NCBI GenBank assembly: GCA_965198945.1
Contig: CBDAQI010000004.1
Coordinates: 77,230 to 141,229 of the forward strand
Source of the DNA: Thermodesulfobacteriota bacterium
GTDB lineage: Bacteria; Desulfobacterota_D; UBA1144; Nemesobacterales; Mycalebacteriaceae
Reading direction: 5' to 3'
DNA: 64,000 nucleotides
Below, piece by piece: positions 43,301 through 49,300 of this stretch. Position 1 is the stretch's first letter; every line of letters begins with the position of its first letter. The position numbers were made by a program.

Positions 43301-46300
43301 TTGGCGGCCATCCGCCTCGGTTTTCTTCTTATGAGACCCGAACTTGCCGTTCAGATGTCAAAGATAAGACTGCCTTATAATATCAATTCCCTTACTCAGG
43401 CCGCGGCGCGCGTTTTTTTTGAAGACCAAACGGCGTTTGAAAAAAATGTGAGAATCATAGTCGCCGAACGCGAAAAAATGTTTGATTCTCTGCGTTCCAT
43501 TGACGGAATAAAGGTTTTTCCAAGTGATGCGAATTTTTTCCTGATACGGTTTCCGGACCCCGCCGCCGCGCAAAAAGTTCACTGCGAGTTGATAAACAAA
43601 AGCATTCTTGTCCGGAATTTTCCGGAGGGAGACATTTCCTGCTGCCTCAGAGTTACGGTTGGTCTTGCCGCAGAGAACCGTGAGTTTGAAAAATGTCTGC
43701 GTGAATTTGTTTCCCGGGGTTTATGAACGACGGCGGCGCGAAAACATAAAAAGCCGCACCGCACCGAAAACAATCAGTCCGAAAGCCAGAACCTGTGCGA
43801 CGGAAAGTCCGTCTATCGGGCTCGGAGTTGTTGTTCTGATGAACTCAACGAAAAATCGCTCAATCCCGGCAAGTGTTATGTAAACGGCAAAAAGCCACCC
43901 CTCGGGCGCGGGTCTACGGCGCAGTTTCCAAAGTATTATAAAAACTCCGGTCATTGAAAGTGTTTCATATATTTGTGTCGGGTGAACTGTGTGATATACG
44001 GGCGGGTAGCCGTCGGGAAAAGCCATGGCCCAGGGCAGTGAAGACGCCGTTCCGTAATCATCACCGACGAGCAGGCAGCCGACCCTTCCTATCGCATATG
44101 CGATTGCGAGTGCGGGAGCGGTGGCGTCAAGGGTTTTCCAGACACCCGCTTTGTGTTTGCGCGCACAGTAAATTCCGGCCGCAAGTCCGCCCAGAAAGCC
44201 GCCGTAAAAAGTGAGTCCGTTCCGGGAGAAAATAAGTTCGGAGGGGTTTGCCGCCAGTTGCTCAAAAGTGAAATTTTGCAGCAGAAAAAAAAGTTTTGCA
44301 CCCGCTACCGAACAAATGACTATCCACAAAATCATGTCTTCCGCAAGTTTCGGAGGCGCGTTTTTTCTCTTCAGTTCACGGGCCGTTATGAGGTATGCGG
44401 ATAGAAATGCGAGAGCCACCATCACACCGAAAGAGTTGATTGAAAAACTCCCAACCGTTAGCAGTTCGGGATACATCAGCGTTTGTTTTCCCTGGTTTTT
44501 TCGTCCGCAGTTTTTTCCGCCCGCGTATTTGATTTTTCAAGCAGAAAAACTGAAATAAAAAAACAGACGCATAGCGCCATGTTTAAAAAGAAAAGCTGAG
44601 TGAATGTCATTTCAAAAGACATTTATATCTTTTAACCCGGTTTTTTTCAAACATGTCTTTGATTTTTGTAATAGTTTTTGTCTGACTGTAGACTTCCCCG
44701 TAATGTTGGGTTCTCCGGTTCTTGTTTTAAACAAAAACTACCTGCCCGTCTCCGTAACCAATTTAAGGCGGGCGTTCATAATGCTTTACTGTGGCGAGGC
44801 AAAAGCCGTTTCGGAGAAATATGAGACTTTTGATTTTGACAGTTGGGCAGATATTTCGGCCGCCGCTTCTGCGGGTCTGAAGGGCGACTACATACGAACG
44901 GTTACAAAAATCATAAAAGCGCCCAGGGTTATCATTCTTCTCCGTTACGGCGGTTTTTACAGAAAGCGTCCGAAATTCAACCGTTTCAACATATTTCGCA
45001 GAGACGGCGGAAAGTGCCAATACTGCGGTCGCGCTTTTCCGAAGAGCGATCTTACAATTGACCATGTAACTCCCCGTGCGCTCGGAGGCACAAGCAGATG
45101 GAACAATGTTGTTTGTTCATGCGCTTCCTGCAACCGCAGAAAAGGCGGAAGAACCCCGGAGCAGGCCGGAATGAAGCTGCTGACAAAACCGGTTGAACCC
45201 CAATGGGGCCCTTTTGCGGGAATGTATGCGCGCGCCGTACGCTACAAAGAGTGGGAACCGTTTGTGAACTTTGTTGACGCTTCGTATTGGAACGTTGAGC
45301 TTGAAGGGTGAGACCGGCCCACGCGATTTTTCTTTCTGTCTGCGTCACTTTCATAAAAGAGTAATGGCGCCTCTTTTTCTCATACAGTCCTAAAGACAGG
45401 CTCAGTAAATCGGTGAGCAATCCTTAAAACATAGCCGTCATACAATCTGAAAGGTCTTTTTTTAACAGTCTTATTAACAGGTAAAAAACGAGAAAATGTT
45501 TGTAAAATTGTTGACTTTGAAGACCGTTAATATATGTTGTGCCTCAATAATTTCGAATTTTGGAGAAAAAATGACCTTTAAAGAATTGGACAGTCTTATA
45601 AAAGAGGCCGGATACCGTGGCACAAGTGACCTCAGCGGCTCCCACATCACTATTCAAACGATAGATCAATTTGGAGAAATTTTCGCCGCCGGAATTTCAG
45701 AAGAGCTAAGAAAACAATTCTCAGACAGCCTGCCAAAATCTTCTTCCGAGGATGTTCTGCGAGAATTGGCGGATTACGTTTACGGCTCATGCTATGTAAA
45801 AGAAATTTTCCCCGTCAAAGTAAAAATGAGAAAGCCTTTATCCAGGCTTGCCGTGGAATATATAAACAAAGTTTTTCCTCTCAAAGCAAAAGCAGTTTCG
45901 GAACATAATGTGGTGATTGACAAAGACATTGTTTTTGGACCTTCGGCTTCTCCGCAAATTATCAATGCCGACACATTAACGTTTGACGGTGGTTCCATAA
46001 CAGCTGTCACTACAAGTTTAAGCATAAATGCAAATAAGTTGATCATAACAGGTAAGAGCAGTTCCAATCCTTATCATGTCGGAGTTTTTGGACGGAAAGG
46101 TTCGGACGGCGCAGACGGCAATCCCGGCAAGCATTACACTTCCCCCGCTGTGGCGGGTCATGACAGCAGTGCCCCCACACCGGGCATATGCACTGGTGCG
46201 AGTAATGGCGGCAAAGGAGATAATGGTCTTAAAGGATTTCCGGGGGAGGACGGCAAAGACGGAAAAGACGGCCAGCCCAACATGCCGGCCAATATTTCTA

Positions 46301-49300
46301 TTGCTGATATGGGAGACAAATCCAAAGAGATGCCCGTTTTCTGTCCTTCTTGCGGTACGGCTAATGTTGTCATTCTTGATACTGAAACCGCAAACTTTGT
46401 TGTCAGCACTTATTCGGGCGCGGGTGGCGCCGGCGGGATTGGACAGACAGGCGGCAATGGCGGAAATGGTTGCCGCACCGGCTGCGAAGGCACCGACGGG
46501 GGCCAGGCCGGCGATGGCGGTGACGGCGGTGATGGGGGCAACGGCGGCAACGGCGGCAATGGCGCTTCGGGCAACCCGATCACAATTACGTTCCCGATAA
46601 AAGACAAGAATTATCTGCAGACAGTCAGCACAACTGCGCCGCTGGGTTCCGGAGGCGACGAAGGCCGGGCCGGAGTCGGCGGCGATGGCGGTACGGGCGG
46701 TGCGGGAGGCAAGCATAAGACCAACGGGTCGTCCGGCGGACAGGGAAAATACGGTGAAAAAGGTAAAAAGGGCGCGGACGGAACAAGACCGGGCGCTCCG
46801 GGCAATATCGTATTTCATTACACTCCATGATTTCCCGGTTCGTTATGAAGTTTTTTATCAGAATTGACTAATGGAATTCTTATACGACTCTGTTGCGGGA
46901 AAATCCGGCCCCTGGGGTTATGGGGTCCACCACGAAGAGATTCCCACACTTGAAAGGGCAAAAGAATTACTTGGCCCGAAAAACGATGAAATACGAAAAA
47001 AACGCAGCAGCGTTTATTACAATTCAAAAAACATCAGAATAAGAAGTCGCCTGCCGATTGGGATGCACGACAGATGTGAAGAATATGTTTTTGCGGGTGG
47101 AAAAATTCATGAAAAGGATGCCCGCCAGCTTAAAAAACATTTTCCCATACAGCTGAAAATTATTCGCCTTCCGGAACACACCATATGGGAAAATCAAACC
47201 TGTGATATAAGCAACAACCACAAAGACTGGACTGAGATAAGTCCCGAAAAGGAACTATATACCTATCTTCATGTTGATAAACTAGTCGTCGCACCCGGAG
47301 CAAGAATTGTTATTTACGGCAATGTGCTTGTTTTTCACTGTGGGGAAATAGTTCTGGATATGTCTTCATCCAAGAAAGATTATCCTGAAATGAAAATCCG
47401 GAGAATGCATGATTTTAGTGTTGATATCTTCGGAACGAAACACTCAGGGCTTGGCAGTGTTCGCCTCCTTCAGGCAAAAGACGGCAGACACGGATTTGAT
47501 GGCAGAAACCAAAATCAAGTGAATCCCGCTGATGATGTTGTTCCGAGCATTTTTGGCCCCTTGGATATTGAAAAATTATATGACTGTGATCAAAGCCGTA
47601 TTCATAAGCCCCGACCAAAAAATGGTGAAAACGGTTTTCGTGGTGAAGACGGTTCTGACGGACAAAACGGCGGCATGTTGCAGTTGGCGAATATAACGAT
47701 ACACAAATTAACAAATTTTCGGGACAGACGTTTCAGGATATTTGCCCAGGCCGGACAGGGACGAAATGGCGGCGATGGCGGCGATGGCGGCAACGGCGGA
47801 CTGCCTTCCAATATTTTTGTTCAAATCCCCCAAGCCTACTCTGATCGTCTTTCTTTAATTTCTCAGGCATCCGTGGGGGGCAGAGGAGGTCTTCCGGGTC
47901 AGGGAGGGCTTAAGGGGAAATCTTACAATACTGATACTGCGGAAAAAGTGCCGCGAAATGGAAAATCCGGGACGGCCGGAATAAACGGTAAAGACCGGGA
48001 GGCCGTGCCTATCTATGTCACGCACCAGACACAACAAATAAACAAGGAGGTTTCATATCTTGAGAAGGCGGTGGATCAAATAAAGAAAAAATTTGAACCG
48101 CAGAACGGGCAAGACGAGTTTCGTCTGTTGTGAGCAATAGGAGAAATTTGAAATGGCAAGAAAAATCTTTATGTCATATAAACATAGTGATAGTGACGTC
48201 CATCCTTTAAATGGCGAAACAACTGCTCGTGTATATGTTGACAATCTAATTGAATTGTTTGAAGGAGATGAAATTTACAAGGGAGAAGGAGATGAAGATT
48301 TGAGTGATTTTCAAGATGAGACTATTGCATCTCACTTGAGGGACAAAATATACGACTCCAGCATGACCATCATTTTAATTTCTCCGCAGATCAAAGACCC
48401 TGCCCAAAGAGACAGCGACCAATGGATACCCTGGGAAATTGCCTATTCTCTTAAGGAAATTACTCGGAATGACCGCACAAGCAAAACAAATGCTACGCTA
48501 GCAATTGTTTTGCCAGATGGAAACTCATCTTACACTTACTATCTTGAGGAAAATACTTGTCAGTCCTGTCATTGCAGACTTCTGAAAACTCACACTCTCT
48601 TTCAAATTATGAGAGATAATATGTTTAATCAAAAAAACCCTACTTATTCAGGCTGTCTGAATCATCCCTCAGGGACTGTTTATAAGGGAGATTCTTGCTA
48701 TATTTACTCAGTCAAGTGGTCTGATTTAATAAGTGATAAGGACAAATACCTTTGCACTGCTGAGCGTATAAAAGAGAACATTGGCGATTACAAGATAGTA
48801 AAGGAAGTTAAAGATGGATGACAAATCACAAGTAGTAAAACATCTTGAAATGATTCAAGGTGTTGTTAACCGCTTGAGTCATGATTTTTTTCTAATCAAA
48901 GGTTGGAGTATGACCTTGCTGGTCGGTGGGATAATTTTCATAACAAGAAATGAAATTCAAACTTATTGGTTTATCTGTGCATTTCTTATTCCCGTAATCG
49001 GCTTTTGGATTTTAGACGGATATTTTTTATGGCAAGAGCGTTTGTTTCGTGATGTCTATAACGACTTCAGAAAGAGAAAAATTACAGACTTTGAAATGAA
49101 TCCGATGAAGCATGAAAACAGTTGGGTTTTATTTGCTTTATGGATGATTACTCTTGGCAAGAAACATTCAGATAAGCCAAGACGTAGTTGGTTATCTTCA
49201 ATTTTTTCAGTAACGCTGAACATGTTTTATGGAATTGAGATTTTGTTTGTGGCAGGGGTATTTTTTATTCTCAAGTATCAAGGAAGTTATTGAACAATGA

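What a model noticed while it worked through the whole genome (the two positions that open the first line are those of the whole stretch)
45571..48133. Conserved gene pair encoding beta-helix + polyproline-II-helix-bundle proteins (snow-flea-antifreeze-like fold) inside a [...]
g00578 and g00579 form a conserved, sporadically distributed two-gene cassette without any family. Both are predicted with high confidence to have an N-terminal alpha/beta domain, a short beta-helix and a large bundle of glycine-rich polyproline-II helices. The bundle superposes on the snow flea antifreeze protein. The two proteins are predicted to bind each other. Here the pair sits between an HNH nuclease and a three-TIR Thoeris-like/PDC-M50 cluster.
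Evidence so far: There is no PADLOC, Pfam or PHROG family. 152 and 101 homologues were found, often on the same contigs. A g00579 homologue lies directly downstream in 10 of 15 genome loci from several phyla, and the flanks vary. AF2 gave pLDDT 85.8 and 84.1. 2pne matches at Z 10.4, rmsd 1.0 A over 81 of 81 residues; 7jjv matches at Z 7.7. The top Foldseek rows are springtail antifreeze proteins, with phage gp38 further down (rank 6 and 8). The complex prediction gave ipSAE 0.64 against a best control of 0.35, 38% contact agreement and pLDDT 68.
(Added by a program. Inside this text positions count along the whole contig: contig position 77,230 is position 1 of the stretch shown here. "Call 12" and the like, gene names such as g00115 and contig names such as C1 are that model's own, and its searches are not shown. 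The text may have been shortened before it was handed on; [...] marks where a part breaks off. The agent that wrote the report below was given it as the finding of a first reader that could run no searches.)

Follow-up and report, generated by a model that had tools for sequence, protein, structure and literature searches.

The report
Paralogous glycine-rich solenoid protein pair
Two neighbouring genes encode related, family-less proteins built from a beta-helix and a bundle of glycine-rich helices; they seem to work as a pair, usually travel with toxin-like genes, and here sit in a hotspot for anti-phage defence genes.

Summary
A (g00578, 45571-46830) and B (g00579, 46871-48133) are intact and match no Pfam, NCBIfam, PADLOC or PHROG family. 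A folds confidently (pLDDT 87.8) into a helical cap, a right-handed beta-helix and a PPII bundle. That bundle superposes on snow-flea antifreeze protein (Z 11.4, rmsd 1.3 Å, 81 of 81). Binding is predicted: ipSAE 0.68, best control 0.00.

New here:
- A and B are full-length paralogues (hhalign E 2e-45).
- Across 90 loci the pair is nearly always together. In the window's gene order (39 loci) it is joined by a ~500-aa protein "C" (20 loci, ±"D") or a giant Rhs-core toxin (8 loci).
- Six pairs have neither, the window included; four of these lie beside known defence systems.
- The pair is missing from 40 related genomes. Its 5.5-kb insert fills a slot that holds other defence systems in 4 of 4 same-genus genomes examined.
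- The upstream HNH gene is conserved in the genus and is not island cargo.
- B's N-domain has an invariant R/H/D/E/H cluster and no fold match (best Z 4.2).

Best reading (0.4): the pair is the constant recognition or scaffold core of a mobile, modular conflict cassette. Its function is untested, and an antifreeze role is unlikely.

The parts
45571..46830 (+). Gene A (g00578), 419 aa: helical/alpha-beta cap, right-handed beta-helix and Gly-rich PPII bundle
   Evidence: ORF and RBS. AF2 pLDDT 87.8. 2pne Z 11.4. 152 homologues.
45571..45873 (+). A N-terminal domain (res 1-101). It is the least conserved part of A and forms part of the groove predicted to hold B's loop.
   Evidence: Secondary structure. 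Pairwise identity 0.23-0.25. Interface residues 34, 38, 63, 66-67, 70, 97, 100-101.
45880..46089 (+). A beta-helix rungs (res 104-173)
   Evidence: Strands 104-173. Generic right-handed beta-helix matches at Z 5-6.7.
46090..46827 (+). A PPII-bundle region (res 174-419), with interleaved strands at 240-259, 337-354 and 413-418. It contains the invariant C207 and C301 and the motif GCxSGCEGTDGG.
46351..46407 (+). Insertion in A specific to the window (res 261-279, with CPSC), modelled at low confidence
   Evidence: Alignment gap in all 34 relatives. pLDDT <50.
46871..48133 (+). Gene B (g00579), 420 aa, a paralogue of A. It lacks about 45 residues of GG repeats that relatives have.
   Evidence: Alignment. 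hhalign against A: prob 100, E 2.1e-45, 393 columns.
46871..47146 (+). B N-terminal helical domain (res 1-92) with invariant R58, G64, H66, D67, E70, H90, P92
   Evidence: 68-sequence alignment. AF2 pLDDT 86.3. No fold match at Z>=5 among 48,161 chains. The domain is confined to this family: 157 representatives of 1.84 billion.
47147..47431 (+). B beta-helix rungs (res 93-187)
   Evidence: Weak beta-helix matches: FHA 1rwr_A Z 4.2.
47531..47578 (+). B loop res 221-236 (VVPSIFGPL, with G229 invariant), predicted to dock into A's groove
   Evidence: Interface list of the complex prediction. Conservation.
45313..50795 (.). Strain-specific insert: A, B, ThsB-like TIR, PDC-M50A and two more ThsB-like TIR genes. 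It lies between genus-conserved flanks.
   Evidence: DNA matches of 5 same-genus genomes stop at about 45312 and resume at about 50795. No full-length A relative in any of the 40 related genomes searched.
48153..50413 (+). Neighbouring TIR/PDC-M50 module (48153-48821 ThsB; 48814-49293 PDC-M50A; 49297-49899 and 49889-50413 ThsB/PDC-M50B). Same strand, 19 nt after B. This is a separable module.
   Evidence: PADLOC E 8.7e-77, 6.3e-32, 1e-57 and 1.5e-71. A same-genus genome (G004) holds M50A plus ThsB elsewhere without A or B.

Best explanation
**What it is.** A and B are ancient paralogues that act together as a heteromer. Each has a small helical cap, a right-handed beta-solenoid, and a glycine-rich PPII-helix bundle whose linking segments return as beta strands. 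This is the same building plan as the gp38 adhesin tip of T-even-type phages, but with no detectable sequence relation to it.

**How the two join.** B's conserved loop (res 221-236, S-I-F-G-P-L) is predicted to plug into the groove between A's cap and its first solenoid rungs. The paralogous groove of B carries the family's only invariant polar cluster (R58, H66, D67, E70, H90). The paralogous loop of A carries invariant G205 and C207. I infer that this second pocket binds a further ligand. Candidates are A's loop of a neighbouring dimer (head-to-tail assembly, possibly metal-bridged) or a variable partner.

**What it does.** The pair is the constant core of a horizontally mobile cassette whose other component is swapped. 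That component is either the S/T-rich ~500-aa protein C (±basic protein D) or a giant Rhs-core toxin. Where neither is present, as here, the pair mostly sits beside known defence systems. The most likely role is the recognition or scaffold subunit of a conflict system, either anti-phage or toxin-based. A rigid PPII/solenoid body would bind an invader or target component and couple this to a toxic partner. In this genome the partner would be no dedicated one, or possibly the adjacent TIR genes.

**Shown and inferred.** Shown by computation: the fold of A, the paralogy, the co-occurrence, the predicted interface, the hotspot and the horizontal acquisition. Inferred: binding in cells, the second pocket's ligand, any sensing, and any defence or toxicity.
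For: **Paralogy.** hhalign of A1 against A2 gives prob 100, E 2.1e-45, 393 columns.

**Pairing.**
- 11 of 16 genome loci.
- 58 of the 62 metagenome loci that can be judged.
- Both gene orders occur: 23 A-then-B and 35 B-then-A among metagenome loci.

**Binding.** ipSAE median 0.68, best of 3 controls 0.00, contacts agreeing at least 36%, partner pLDDT at least 69. The mark was reached by 116 of 157 solved complexes and 2 of 215 mismatched pairs (roughly, as my own alignments were used).
- The interface uses B's conserved loop (G229 invariant).
- It lies next to A's conserved F102, P103, P128 and T148.
- By the hhalign register, A contact positions 63, 67 and 101 correspond to B's H66, E70 and H90.

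**Variable third component.** Of 39 A-then-B loci, 20 have C, 8 have the Rhs giant, 5 have neither and 6 cannot be judged. The giant carries Rhs_assc_core at E 1e-19 and DUF6443.

**Defence context of pair-only loci.** 4 of 6:
- window: ThsB/PDC-M50
- L002: Hachiman HamA at 1e-117 and HamB at E 0
- L018: PDC-S35 TIR at 9e-54
- L020: Wadjet JetB/C/D

**Hotspot.** The slot between the HNH gene and alaS holds RM, AbiL, PD-T4-4-like, PDC-S35 or PDC-M41 genes in 4 of 4 same-genus genomes examined.

**Horizontal acquisition.** None of 40 related genomes has a full-length relative. A copy lies on a mobilizable plasmid.

**Building plan like gp38.** In gp38 a beta-solenoid is interleaved with PPII helices (passages read in bioRxiv 10.1101/2023.11.25.568672).
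Against: - Everything is prediction and gene neighbourhood; there is no phenotype.
- Known defence genes are few around the loci with C or the Rhs giant. Of 17 such loci scanned within ±5 kb, only L019/L022 and L032/L041 have clear hits. These are two pairs of near-identical contigs. None of the 3 Rhs loci has a hit. L005 has one PDC-M72A hit.
- L002 and L018 are close relatives, so the 4 of 6 is not four independent events.
- The window's B sits on a long branch (1.13 against a median of 0.28). It lacks about 45 Gly-rich residues, and A has an unmodelled insertion. The local copy may therefore be diverging or decaying.
- The pair lacks C here, and C is absent from the whole 95%-complete genome.
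- No known fold or enzyme family explains B's invariant cluster.
- The gp38 likeness is weak by score: Z 3.9 and 3.2.
- Glycine content inflates sequence and structure scores.
Confidence: 0.4

Rival explanations
1. The pair is a targeting or adhesin accessory for released toxins. A-B would be a gp38-like binding module that is released, for example by lysis, together with the Rhs toxin or with C/D. It would direct them to target cells in inter-bacterial or host antagonism. On this view the window copy is an orphan left after the toxin was lost.
For: - 28 of 39 A-then-B loci carry C or an Rhs-core giant on the same strand, adjacent to the pair.
- The window's B nests in the C-associated clade: a starred set of 23 rows, of which 15 have C.
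- PPII bundles in solved proteins are often receptor-binding tips of phage tails (passages read).
- Beta-helix matches are mostly adhesins and tailspikes, at Z 5-6.7.
- Most C and Rhs loci lack defence neighbours.
Against: - A, B, C and D show no signal peptide or membrane segment at the N-terminus (sequences).
- No secretion-system genes were seen as conserved neighbours.
- A pair-only clade (L002, L018, L033) keeps both genes intact without any toxin.
- Pair-only loci lie in defence islands in 4 of 6 cases.
Confidence: 0.2
2. A and/or B are immunity (antidote) proteins for the Rhs C-terminal toxin or for C. They would be kept as orphan immunity genes where the toxin has been lost.
For: - In 8 loci the pair lies directly 3' of the Rhs gene, the usual place of immunity genes.
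- The ~340-aa region after the Rhs core is conserved in 7 of 9 full-length giants, so it could co-evolve with a fixed antidote.
Against: - Two paralogous 400-aa solenoid proteins are unlike usual small immunity proteins (recalled knowledge).
- In L055 and L082 the order is B, A, Rhs, so the pair lies upstream of the toxin.
- In the cassettes with C, the pair precedes C.
- Most loci have no Rhs at all.
- L006 and L082 have a different Rhs C-terminus yet keep A and B.
Confidence: 0.1
3. The pair is a structural or self-assembling cytoplasmic polymer unrelated to conflict. Examples would be a bactofilin-like beta-helical filament or a glycine-rich scaffold.
For: - The predicted interface is one-sided (B's loop into A's groove), and a paralogous loop and groove remain free. 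This geometry would allow head-to-tail chains.
- Weak beta-helix likeness to bactofilin, Z 2.6.
Against: - The distribution is sporadic and horizontally transferred, and none of 40 related genomes has a full-length relative. This does not fit a housekeeping structure.
- The pair is linked to Rhs toxins and lies in defence islands.
- The family is rare: 157 representatives among 1.84 billion.
Confidence: 0.1
4. The pair is an ice-binding or antifreeze protein, as the best structural match suggests.
For: - The PPII bundle of A superposes on sfAFP at Z 11.4, rmsd 1.3 Å, over 81 of 81 residues.
- One host is named psychrodurans.
Against: - No sequence relation to springtail AFPs turned up: a profile search of PDB sequences finds only collagens and Gly-rich chains.
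- There is no export signal.
- The bundle is only part of a 420-aa solenoid protein.
- Hosts include Raoultella, Haematospirillum, Ensifer, Burkholderia and Halomonas.
- Toxin and defence context is unrelated to cold.
- The 42% identity is due to glycine.
Confidence: 0.03

Closest known systems
gp38 receptor-binding adhesin of T-even-type phages (S16 gp38, PDB 6f45; PP01 gp38, 9v85)
   Same: The building plan is the same. There is an N-terminal attachment domain, then beta-solenoid layers interleaved with a glycine-rich PPII (PGII) bundle (passages read in bioRxiv 10.1101/2023.11.25.568672). In gp38 the rigid bundle serves as a platform for binding.
   Different: - Structural scores are weak: 9v85_A Z 3.9 and 6f45_D Z 3.2.
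- Neither protein matches any Pfam family.
- The pair was not found on viral contigs or phage records.
- It occurs as a chromosomal paralogue pair with a different, family-specific N-domain.
Snow-flea and springtail PPII antifreeze proteins (2pne, 3bog, 7jjv)
   Same: Six to nine antiparallel glycine-rich PPII helices in two flat layers. This is the best structural match to A res 185-397: Z 11.4 and 9.4.
   Different: - The AFPs are 81-126-residue arthropod proteins (chain lengths; that they are secreted is recalled).
- Here the bundle is embedded in 420-aa bacterial proteins without an export signal.
- No sequence homology was detected.
- An antifreeze role is unlikely.
DUF7932 (PF25560) proteins of bacteria, eukaryotes and giant viruses
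   Same: Their N-terminal ~280 residues are a Gly-rich strand/PPII domain that resembles A and B.
- By profile: E 3e-11 to 2e-5 among the 120 rows listed.
- By structure: Terrestrivirus and Mimivirus proteins at Foldseek prob 0.98-0.99.
   Different: - They are ~1000-1500-aa single proteins with the DUF7932 domain and long C-terminal regions. Some have signal-peptide-like N-termini.
- A and B lack PF25560 and have their own cap domain.
- These proteins are themselves uncharacterised: 0 papers hold the term.
Rhs/YD polymorphic toxin cassettes
   Same: In 11 of 90 loci a 2,000-2,850-aa Rhs-core protein (TIGR03696, DUF6443) abuts the pair on the same strand.
   Different: - The window and its genome have no such neighbour.
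- The pair is not a typical small immunity gene, and it can lie upstream of the Rhs gene.
Thoeris / PDC-M50 TIR systems (the neighbours here)
   Same: The pair is adjacent to them, on the same strand, 19 nt apart, within one strain-specific insert.
   Different: - A and B match no ThsA or ThsB model.
- The TIR module occurs without A or B in a same-genus genome.
- 88 of the other 90 loci showed no TIR gene among the neighbours that I scanned. The exception is L018, which has PDC-S35 on the opposite strand. Not all neighbours were scanned.

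Membership tests
Springtail PPII antifreeze proteins | PPII-helix bundle in two flat layers, superposable | tested here: met
   2pne Z 11.4, rmsd 1.3 Å, 81 of 81; 7jjv_B Z 9.4
Springtail PPII antifreeze proteins | Detectable sequence homology | tested here: not met
   A profile search of PDB sequences at E<=1 lists collagens and Gly-rich chains but no AFP. 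The 42% identity in the superposition is due to glycine.
Springtail PPII antifreeze proteins | Small exported protein | tested here: not met
   419 and 420 aa, with no hydrophobic N-terminal signal in either protein
Springtail PPII antifreeze proteins | Ice binding / thermal hysteresis | not testable with these tools
   Needs purified protein
Phage gp38 adhesins | Attachment domain plus beta-solenoid plus PGII sandwich | tested here: inconclusive
   The plan is similar, but scores are weak: 9v85_A Z 3.9 and 6f45_D Z 3.2
Phage gp38 adhesins | Encoded in a phage tail-fibre module | tested here: not met
   No relatives in IMG/VR by pattern plus tblastn. No match among 50,697 phage records.
Collagen triple-helix / bacterial collagen-like proteins | Long G-X-Y repeat reaching family thresholds | tested here: not met
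   No Pfam Collagen hit at E<=0.01. NCBIfam SclB 18.5 bits against a cut-off of 325. The repeats are mostly GGX interrupted by strands.
Known anti-phage defence systems (PADLOC-DB v2.0.0) | Match to any component model | tested here: not met
   0 families for A and B at E<=0.01. 0 for C and D at E<=0.001.
Thoeris | ThsA-type effector (SIR2/SLOG or Macro) partnered with ThsB | tested here: not met
   ThsB-like genes are adjacent, but A and B match no ThsA model. The modules are separable.
Rhs toxin immunity proteins | Gene directly 3' of the Rhs C-terminal toxin domain | tested here: inconclusive
   True in 8 of 39 A-then-B loci. The order is reversed in L055 and L082. No Rhs gene abuts the pair in the window.
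DUF7932 (PF25560) family | Presence of the PF25560 domain | tested here: not met
   No PF25560 hit in A or B at E<=1, while 5 of 5 tested long relatives carry it
DUF7932 (PF25560) family | Shared N-terminal Gly-rich strand/PPII domain | tested here: met
   Profile hits at E 3e-11 to 2e-5 among the rows listed. Foldseek BFVD prob 0.98-0.99. Glycine bias applies.

The most novel reading that the evidence does not exclude
A-B is the recognition core of a previously undescribed class of modular bacterial conflict system. It would be a cytoplasmic heteromer of paralogous beta-solenoid/PPII-bundle proteins built on the same plan as phage gp38 receptor-binding tips. It would recognise an invader (or target) component through its rigid glycine-rich body and variable cap. 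It would couple this, through the invariant His/Asp/Glu pocket of B, to interchangeable killing modules: an Rhs-encapsulated toxin, the possibly pore-forming C/D pair, or neighbouring TIR enzymes.
Probability: 0.25. Interest if true: 0.85.

Novelty: categorically new. Interest (0 to 1): 0.68.

Why it matters
**Structural biology.** PPII-helix bundles are a rare third kind of protein architecture. They are known from a handful of solved proteins: springtail antifreezes, Obg, gp38, ALK/LTK, and carboxylase subunits (passages read). This work defines a bacterial family with these properties:
- 157 representative clusters among 1.84 billion;
- the bundle is fused to a beta-solenoid and a private cap domain;
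- it is duplicated into an obligate-looking pair.

The same Gly-rich module appears in uncharacterised DUF7932 proteins of eukaryotes and giant viruses.

**Microbial conflict.** The pair behaves like a constant core with swap-in toxin-like partners, and it lands in defence hotspots. If it proves to be a sensor or scaffold of a defence or toxin system, it would add a new recognition principle. It would also make the function of cytoplasmic PPII bundles directly testable. If it is only an accessory of Rhs toxins, it would still explain a conserved, unannotated part of those loci.

Tried and rejected
**Phage origin.** No relatives in IMG/VR contigs by pattern plus tblastn. No tblastn match among 50,697 phage records.

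**Earlier notes of this scan.** Nothing by place or by sequence.

**B N-domain (res 1-200) fold.**
- VIA wide: 0 of 48,161 chains at Z>=5; best is the FHA beta-helix at Z 4.2.
- Foldseek PDB: 0 matches at E<=0.001.
- ESM Atlas, named clusters: best 0.81, below the level of a lead.

**PDB sequence searches.**
- A: only collagens and one 'spindle/axial fibril' chain. All match the Gly-rich C-terminal 55 positions and are compositional.
- B: nothing below E 1e-3.
- C: nothing at E<=10.

**Protein C.**
- Pfam at E<=10 gives only PorP_SprF at 0.061 and OEP at 0.56. NCBIfam gives only a serine-rich hit at 17.8 bits.
- ESM Atlas structure rows resemble clusters that partly carry Leukocidin (13-24% of members), at TM 0.43-0.45 and from a low-confidence model (pLDDT 0.48). 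This is a lead, not a finding.

**Fused forms.** A search of longer proteins found no A-B fusion and no fusion of B's cap to a known domain.

**Promoters and terminators.** 11 promoter-like sites against 10.6 expected. There is no + strand terminator-like site between A and the last TIR gene. This is weak evidence for an operon.

**Repeats at the insert borders.** Only a 26-nt pair at 73% identity (45235 and 51324), which is not convincing.

**Expression.** No RNA holder was listed, and I did not lay reads.

**Literature.** Five searches found no paper on this family:
- 'polyproline II' + glycine-rich + bundle + bacterial
- polyglycine II / sandwich / gp38
- DUF7932: 0 papers
- anti-phage + collagen-like + defense system
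- 'polyproline II helical bundle' + glycine-rich

**Tree.** The careful tree search did not finish, so the quick IQ-TREE tree was used.

Full report
**What is at the coordinates.**

The window holds two adjacent + strand ORFs. A (g00578) is listed from 45496. The ATG at 45571 has GGAG 7 nt upstream, and all aligned homologues begin there. A is therefore 45571-46830, 419 aa. B (g00579) is 46871-48133, 420 aa. Neither has a hydrophobic N-terminus.

Neither protein matches Pfam or PADLOC at E<=0.01. NCBIfam and PHROGs give only sub-threshold collagen-like hits. Homologue searches returned 152 and 101 proteins, the numbers in the finding. Named sources span these groups:
- Pseudomonadota, Bacteroidota, Campylobacterota and Spirochaetota;
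- Nitrospirota (a Leptospirillum plasmid ORF);
- Actinomycetota and Acidobacteriota.

**Structure.**

With a 35-sequence alignment, AF2 models A at pLDDT 87.8 and pTM 0.77. The parts are:
- an alpha/beta cap (res 1-101);
- beta-helix rungs (res 104-173);
- a Gly-rich region (res 174-419) with almost no alpha or beta assignment, except short strand pairs at 240-259, 337-354 and 413-418;
- an insertion specific to the window (res 261-279), modelled at low confidence.

Foldseek against the PDB ranks springtail antifreeze proteins first, but weakly (7jjv_B at E 4.5e-4, prob 0.28). VIA-align gives 2pne and 3bog at Z 11.4-11.5 (rmsd 1.3 Å, 81 of 81 aligned, 42% identity) and 7jjv_B at Z 9.4. All other chains are generic right-handed beta-helices at Z<=6.7. 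By the whole-model count, 1 of 48,161 chains reached Z>=8.

The structural observation is thus reproduced. The identity comes from glycine, and a profile search of PDB sequences finds collagens rather than AFPs.

I read passages of the preprint 'Architectonic Principles of Polyproline II Helix Bundle Protein Domains'. In phage S16 gp38 the PPII helices are preceded by, and interleaved with, layers of a beta-solenoid. That is the same plan as in A. The direct scores to gp38 are low, however: 9v85_A at Z 3.9 and 6f45_D at Z 3.2.

**A and B are paralogues with complementary conservation.**

A profile-profile comparison of the two families gives probability 100, E 2.1e-45, over 393 columns. It covers the cap and the beta-helix as well as the Gly-rich part.

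In A the cap is the least conserved region (pairwise identity 0.23-0.25). The strongest non-glycine signals are invariant C207 (PSPGICTGA), invariant C301 in the GCxSGCEGTDGG motif, and F102/P103.

In B the cap segment 41-92 is among the best conserved (0.46). Across 68 diverse sequences R58, G64, H66, D67, E70, H90, P92, G150 and N151 are invariant.

B res 1-200 folds confidently (pLDDT 86.3, pTM 0.81) into five helices (27-90) capping a beta-helix. No solved chain reaches Z 5 among 48,161, and Foldseek finds nothing at E<=0.001. A full scan of 1.84 billion representative proteins with this domain's profile finds 157 proteins at E<=1e-3. Nearly all are 400-460 aa or fragments. The cap is therefore private to this family and is not seen fused to any known domain.

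**Predicted complex.**

With both alignments, the A+B prediction scored ipSAE 0.65, 0.68 and 0.69 (median 0.68) against 0.00 for the best of three controls. Contacts agreed in at least 36% and partner pLDDT was at least 69. That mark was reached by 116 of 157 solved complexes and 2 of 215 mismatched pairs. These counts hold only roughly with my own alignments.

The confident interface has two sides:
- B res 221-236, the conserved loop VVPSIFGPL with invariant G229;

By the hhalign register, A positions 63, 67 and 101 correspond to B's H66, E70 and H90. B's docking loop corresponds to A's PTPGIC loop, with G205 matching G229.

I infer, but cannot show, that B's invariant pocket receives a second ligand. 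This could be A's loop from another dimer or a third component. The interface as predicted is one-sided, which would permit head-to-tail assembly.

**Gene neighbourhoods.**

I mapped A, B and conserved neighbours by six-frame HMM searches. The set was 16 genome loci anchored on A and 74 metagenome loci anchored on B.

B follows A directly in 11 of 16 genome loci. Of the 74 metagenome loci, A is adjacent in 58, absent despite adequate flanks in 4, and undecidable in 12. Two gene orders exist. A then B is the window's kind. B then A is a more distant subfamily.

Three further conserved genes emerged.
- **C** is about 500 aa, with a Ser/Thr-rich stretch and no hit in Pfam, NCBIfam, PADLOC or PDB sequences.
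- **D** is 320-360 aa, with a basic N-terminus, and usually lies downstream of C.
- **The Rhs giant** is a 2,000-2,850-aa protein with DUF6443 and the Rhs-associated core domain (TIGR03696 at E 1e-19). It ends in a ~340-aa Gly/Ala-rich C-terminal region that is conserved in 7 of 9 full-length copies.

The 39 A-then-B (or A-only) loci divide as follows:

| Third component | Loci |
|---|---|
| C | 20 |
| Rhs giant | 8 |
| Neither, flanks >=1.5 kb | 5 |
| Undecidable | 6 |

All five genome loci without B have C directly after A. B-then-A loci usually have other conserved neighbours:
- an unannotated ~1,420-aa protein;
- Fib_succ_major-domain proteins;
- a TPR-glycosyltransferase;
- sometimes DUF6603.

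The window's genome (1.39 Mb, 95% complete) has no C homologue.

In a quick maximum-likelihood tree of B's cap domain, the window sits on a long branch (1.13 against a median of 0.28). It lies inside a well-supported set of 23 rows, of which 15 are linked to C. The pair-only state arises at least two to three times. The window's pair-only form is thus most simply derived from a C-bearing ancestor.

**Defence context.**

DNA comparison with five same-genus genomes shows conserved flanks up to about 45312. These include hisD, the aminotransferase, lgt and the HNH gene at 44604-45311. The flanks resume at about 50795 and run to alaS. The insert is therefore about 5.5 kb: A, B, a ThsB-like gene, PDC-M50A and two more ThsB/PDC-M50B genes.

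None of 40 related genomes (5 same genus, 35 same order) has a full-length A relative. Four have only short, weak Gly-rich matches.

In the four same-genus genomes where both flanks lie on one contig, the same slot holds other systems:
- PD-T4-4/AriA-like ATPase plus PDC-S35 TIR;
- PDC-M41B plus type III and type II restriction-modification;
- AbiL plus type III restriction-modification;
- type III methyltransferase plus PDC-M24B and PDC-M41.

The fifth genome has its flanks on separate contigs.

Four of the six pair-only loci lie beside known systems:
- the window;
- L002, with Hachiman;
- L018, with PDC-S35;
- L020, with Wadjet JetBCD and a mad2-like gene.

L002 and L018 are close relatives but carry different systems. 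L007 and L033 show none, apart from an RtcR-like regulator in L033.

The picture differs for loci with C or the Rhs giant. Of 17 scanned within ±5 kb, only L019/L022 (a helicase plus a mad3/AriA-like ATPase) and L032/L041 (a GajB-like helicase) have clear hits. None of the 3 Rhs loci has one. L005 has one PDC-M72A hit.

The TIR/PDC-M50 module also occurs without A or B in a same-genus genome. It is therefore a separate module, although here it follows B by 19 nt with no terminator-like site between them.

**Mobility.**

B-like sequence occurs on 4 of 72,556 plasmid records. One is the 28.9-kb mobilizable Leptospirillum ferrooxidans plasmid p49879.1, where B appears degraded. None was found on phage records or viral contigs.

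**A wider relation.**

A search among longer proteins with B's profile found many ~1,000-1,500-aa proteins of bacteria, fungi, ciliates, a flatworm and a mussel. Their N-terminal ~280 residues have the same Gly-rich strand/PPII pattern, followed by Pfam DUF7932. Foldseek against viral models independently puts DUF7932 proteins of giant viruses near the top (prob 0.98-0.99). A and B lack DUF7932 itself. No paper in the library contains that name.

**Interpretation.**

The evidence supports a heteromeric pair of paralogous solenoid/PPII proteins. The pair is the constant element of a mobile cassette with interchangeable toxin-like companions, and in its minimal form it sits in defence islands.

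I therefore favour a recognition or scaffold role in a conflict system (confidence 0.4). The rivals are:
- a gp38-like targeting accessory of released toxins (0.2);
- immunity proteins (0.1);
- a non-conflict structural polymer (0.1);
- an antifreeze protein (0.03).

The window's copy may be diverging. Its branch is long, B has lost repeats and A has gained an insertion. All family-invariant residues are nonetheless retained.

No experiment or expression datum is available, and no RNA holder was listed. B's full-length fold and the folds of C and D were not computed here.

**Novelty.**

No curated library searched contains the pair or its companions C and D. These were Pfam 2025, NCBIfam June 2026, PADLOC-DB 2023 and PHROGs v4. 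Five literature searches also failed to find it. The fold elements are known; the family, its private cap domain, the paralogue pairing and the cassette are not.

Noticed in passing
window 44604-45311 (+): The HNH endonuclease upstream of A has sub-threshold IscB/Cas9-like HNH hits and a PHROG HNH hit at 7e-31. It is conserved next to lgt in all 5 same-genus genomes and marks the left edge of a variable defence hotspot. It is not part of the insert.
   Followed up: partly
window 48153-50413 (+): There are three ThsB-like TIR genes plus PDC-M50A, with no ThsA-type effector in the insert. A same-genus genome (G004, contig C1) carries a 74-75% identical PDC-M50A+ThsB pair elsewhere.
   Followed up: partly
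window 50597-51220 (-): A 207-aa ORF has weak HNH_2 and phosphorothioate-dependent restriction endonuclease likeness (E 4e-7, below cut-off). Conservation with relatives starts only at about 50795, so its last ~66 codons differ from the genus version. It may be a gene altered by the insertion.
   Followed up: no
L015:11627-13138, L005:7883-9439, L008:11164-12666 and 21 further loci: Protein family C (~500 aa) lies directly after the pair. It has a Ser/Thr/Asn-rich stretch followed by an alternating hydrophobic/polar segment, and no family or PDB sequence hit. It shows weak Atlas structural likeness (TM 0.43-0.45) to clusters that partly carry Leukocidin. It may be a beta-pore-former; this is untested.
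   Followed up: partly
L008:12702-13793, L015:13166-14128, L013, L014, L016: Protein family D (320-360 aa) lies after C. It has a lysine/arginine-rich N-terminus and a conserved M-Q-H-P-T motif, and matches no family.
   Followed up: no
L006:1493-9778, L009:1525-9906, L012:47-7777, L029, L071, L055, L082, L064: Giant Rhs-core proteins (DUF6443 plus TIGR03696) abut the pair. They have ~1,400 unannotated N-terminal residues and a conserved ~340-aa Gly/Ala-rich C-terminal region. That region ends in a domain with a D-V-I-x-x-H-G motif.
   Followed up: partly
L034, L036, L044, L052, L070, L073-L075, L077, L079, L083 (B-then-A loci): The distant B-then-A subfamily sits in a different conserved operon. 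It comprises a ~1,420-aa protein without family, one to three ~600-aa proteins with a C-terminal Fib_succ_major domain, and a TPR-glycosyltransferase-2 protein. Other B-then-A loci have a DUF6603 protein and a metallo-beta-lactamase-fold protein downstream.
   Followed up: partly
P0227, P0331, P0342 and about 30 further hits; BFVD A0A3G4ZNF8, A0A481Z1I0: DUF7932 proteins of bacteria, fungi, ciliates, animals and giant viruses share the Gly-rich strand/PPII N-terminal domain with A and B. The whole family is uncharacterised.
   Followed up: partly
L108 (NC_006907.1, Leptospirillum ferrooxidans plasmid p49879.1) 307-4079: A mobilizable 28.9-kb plasmid carries an A homologue (289 aa) and a B-like region without an intact annotated gene. 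A 434-aa hypothetical gene follows.
   Followed up: no
L007:5172-6547: In a Rhodospirillaceae MAG the B gene is split into two overlapping frames. This is a frameshift or an assembly error.
   Followed up: no
PDB 8zxl_X: The best PDB sequence hit of A's profile (E 3e-26, over only 55 Gly-rich positions) is a chain named 'spindlefibril | axialfibril'. The match is probably compositional.
   Followed up: no
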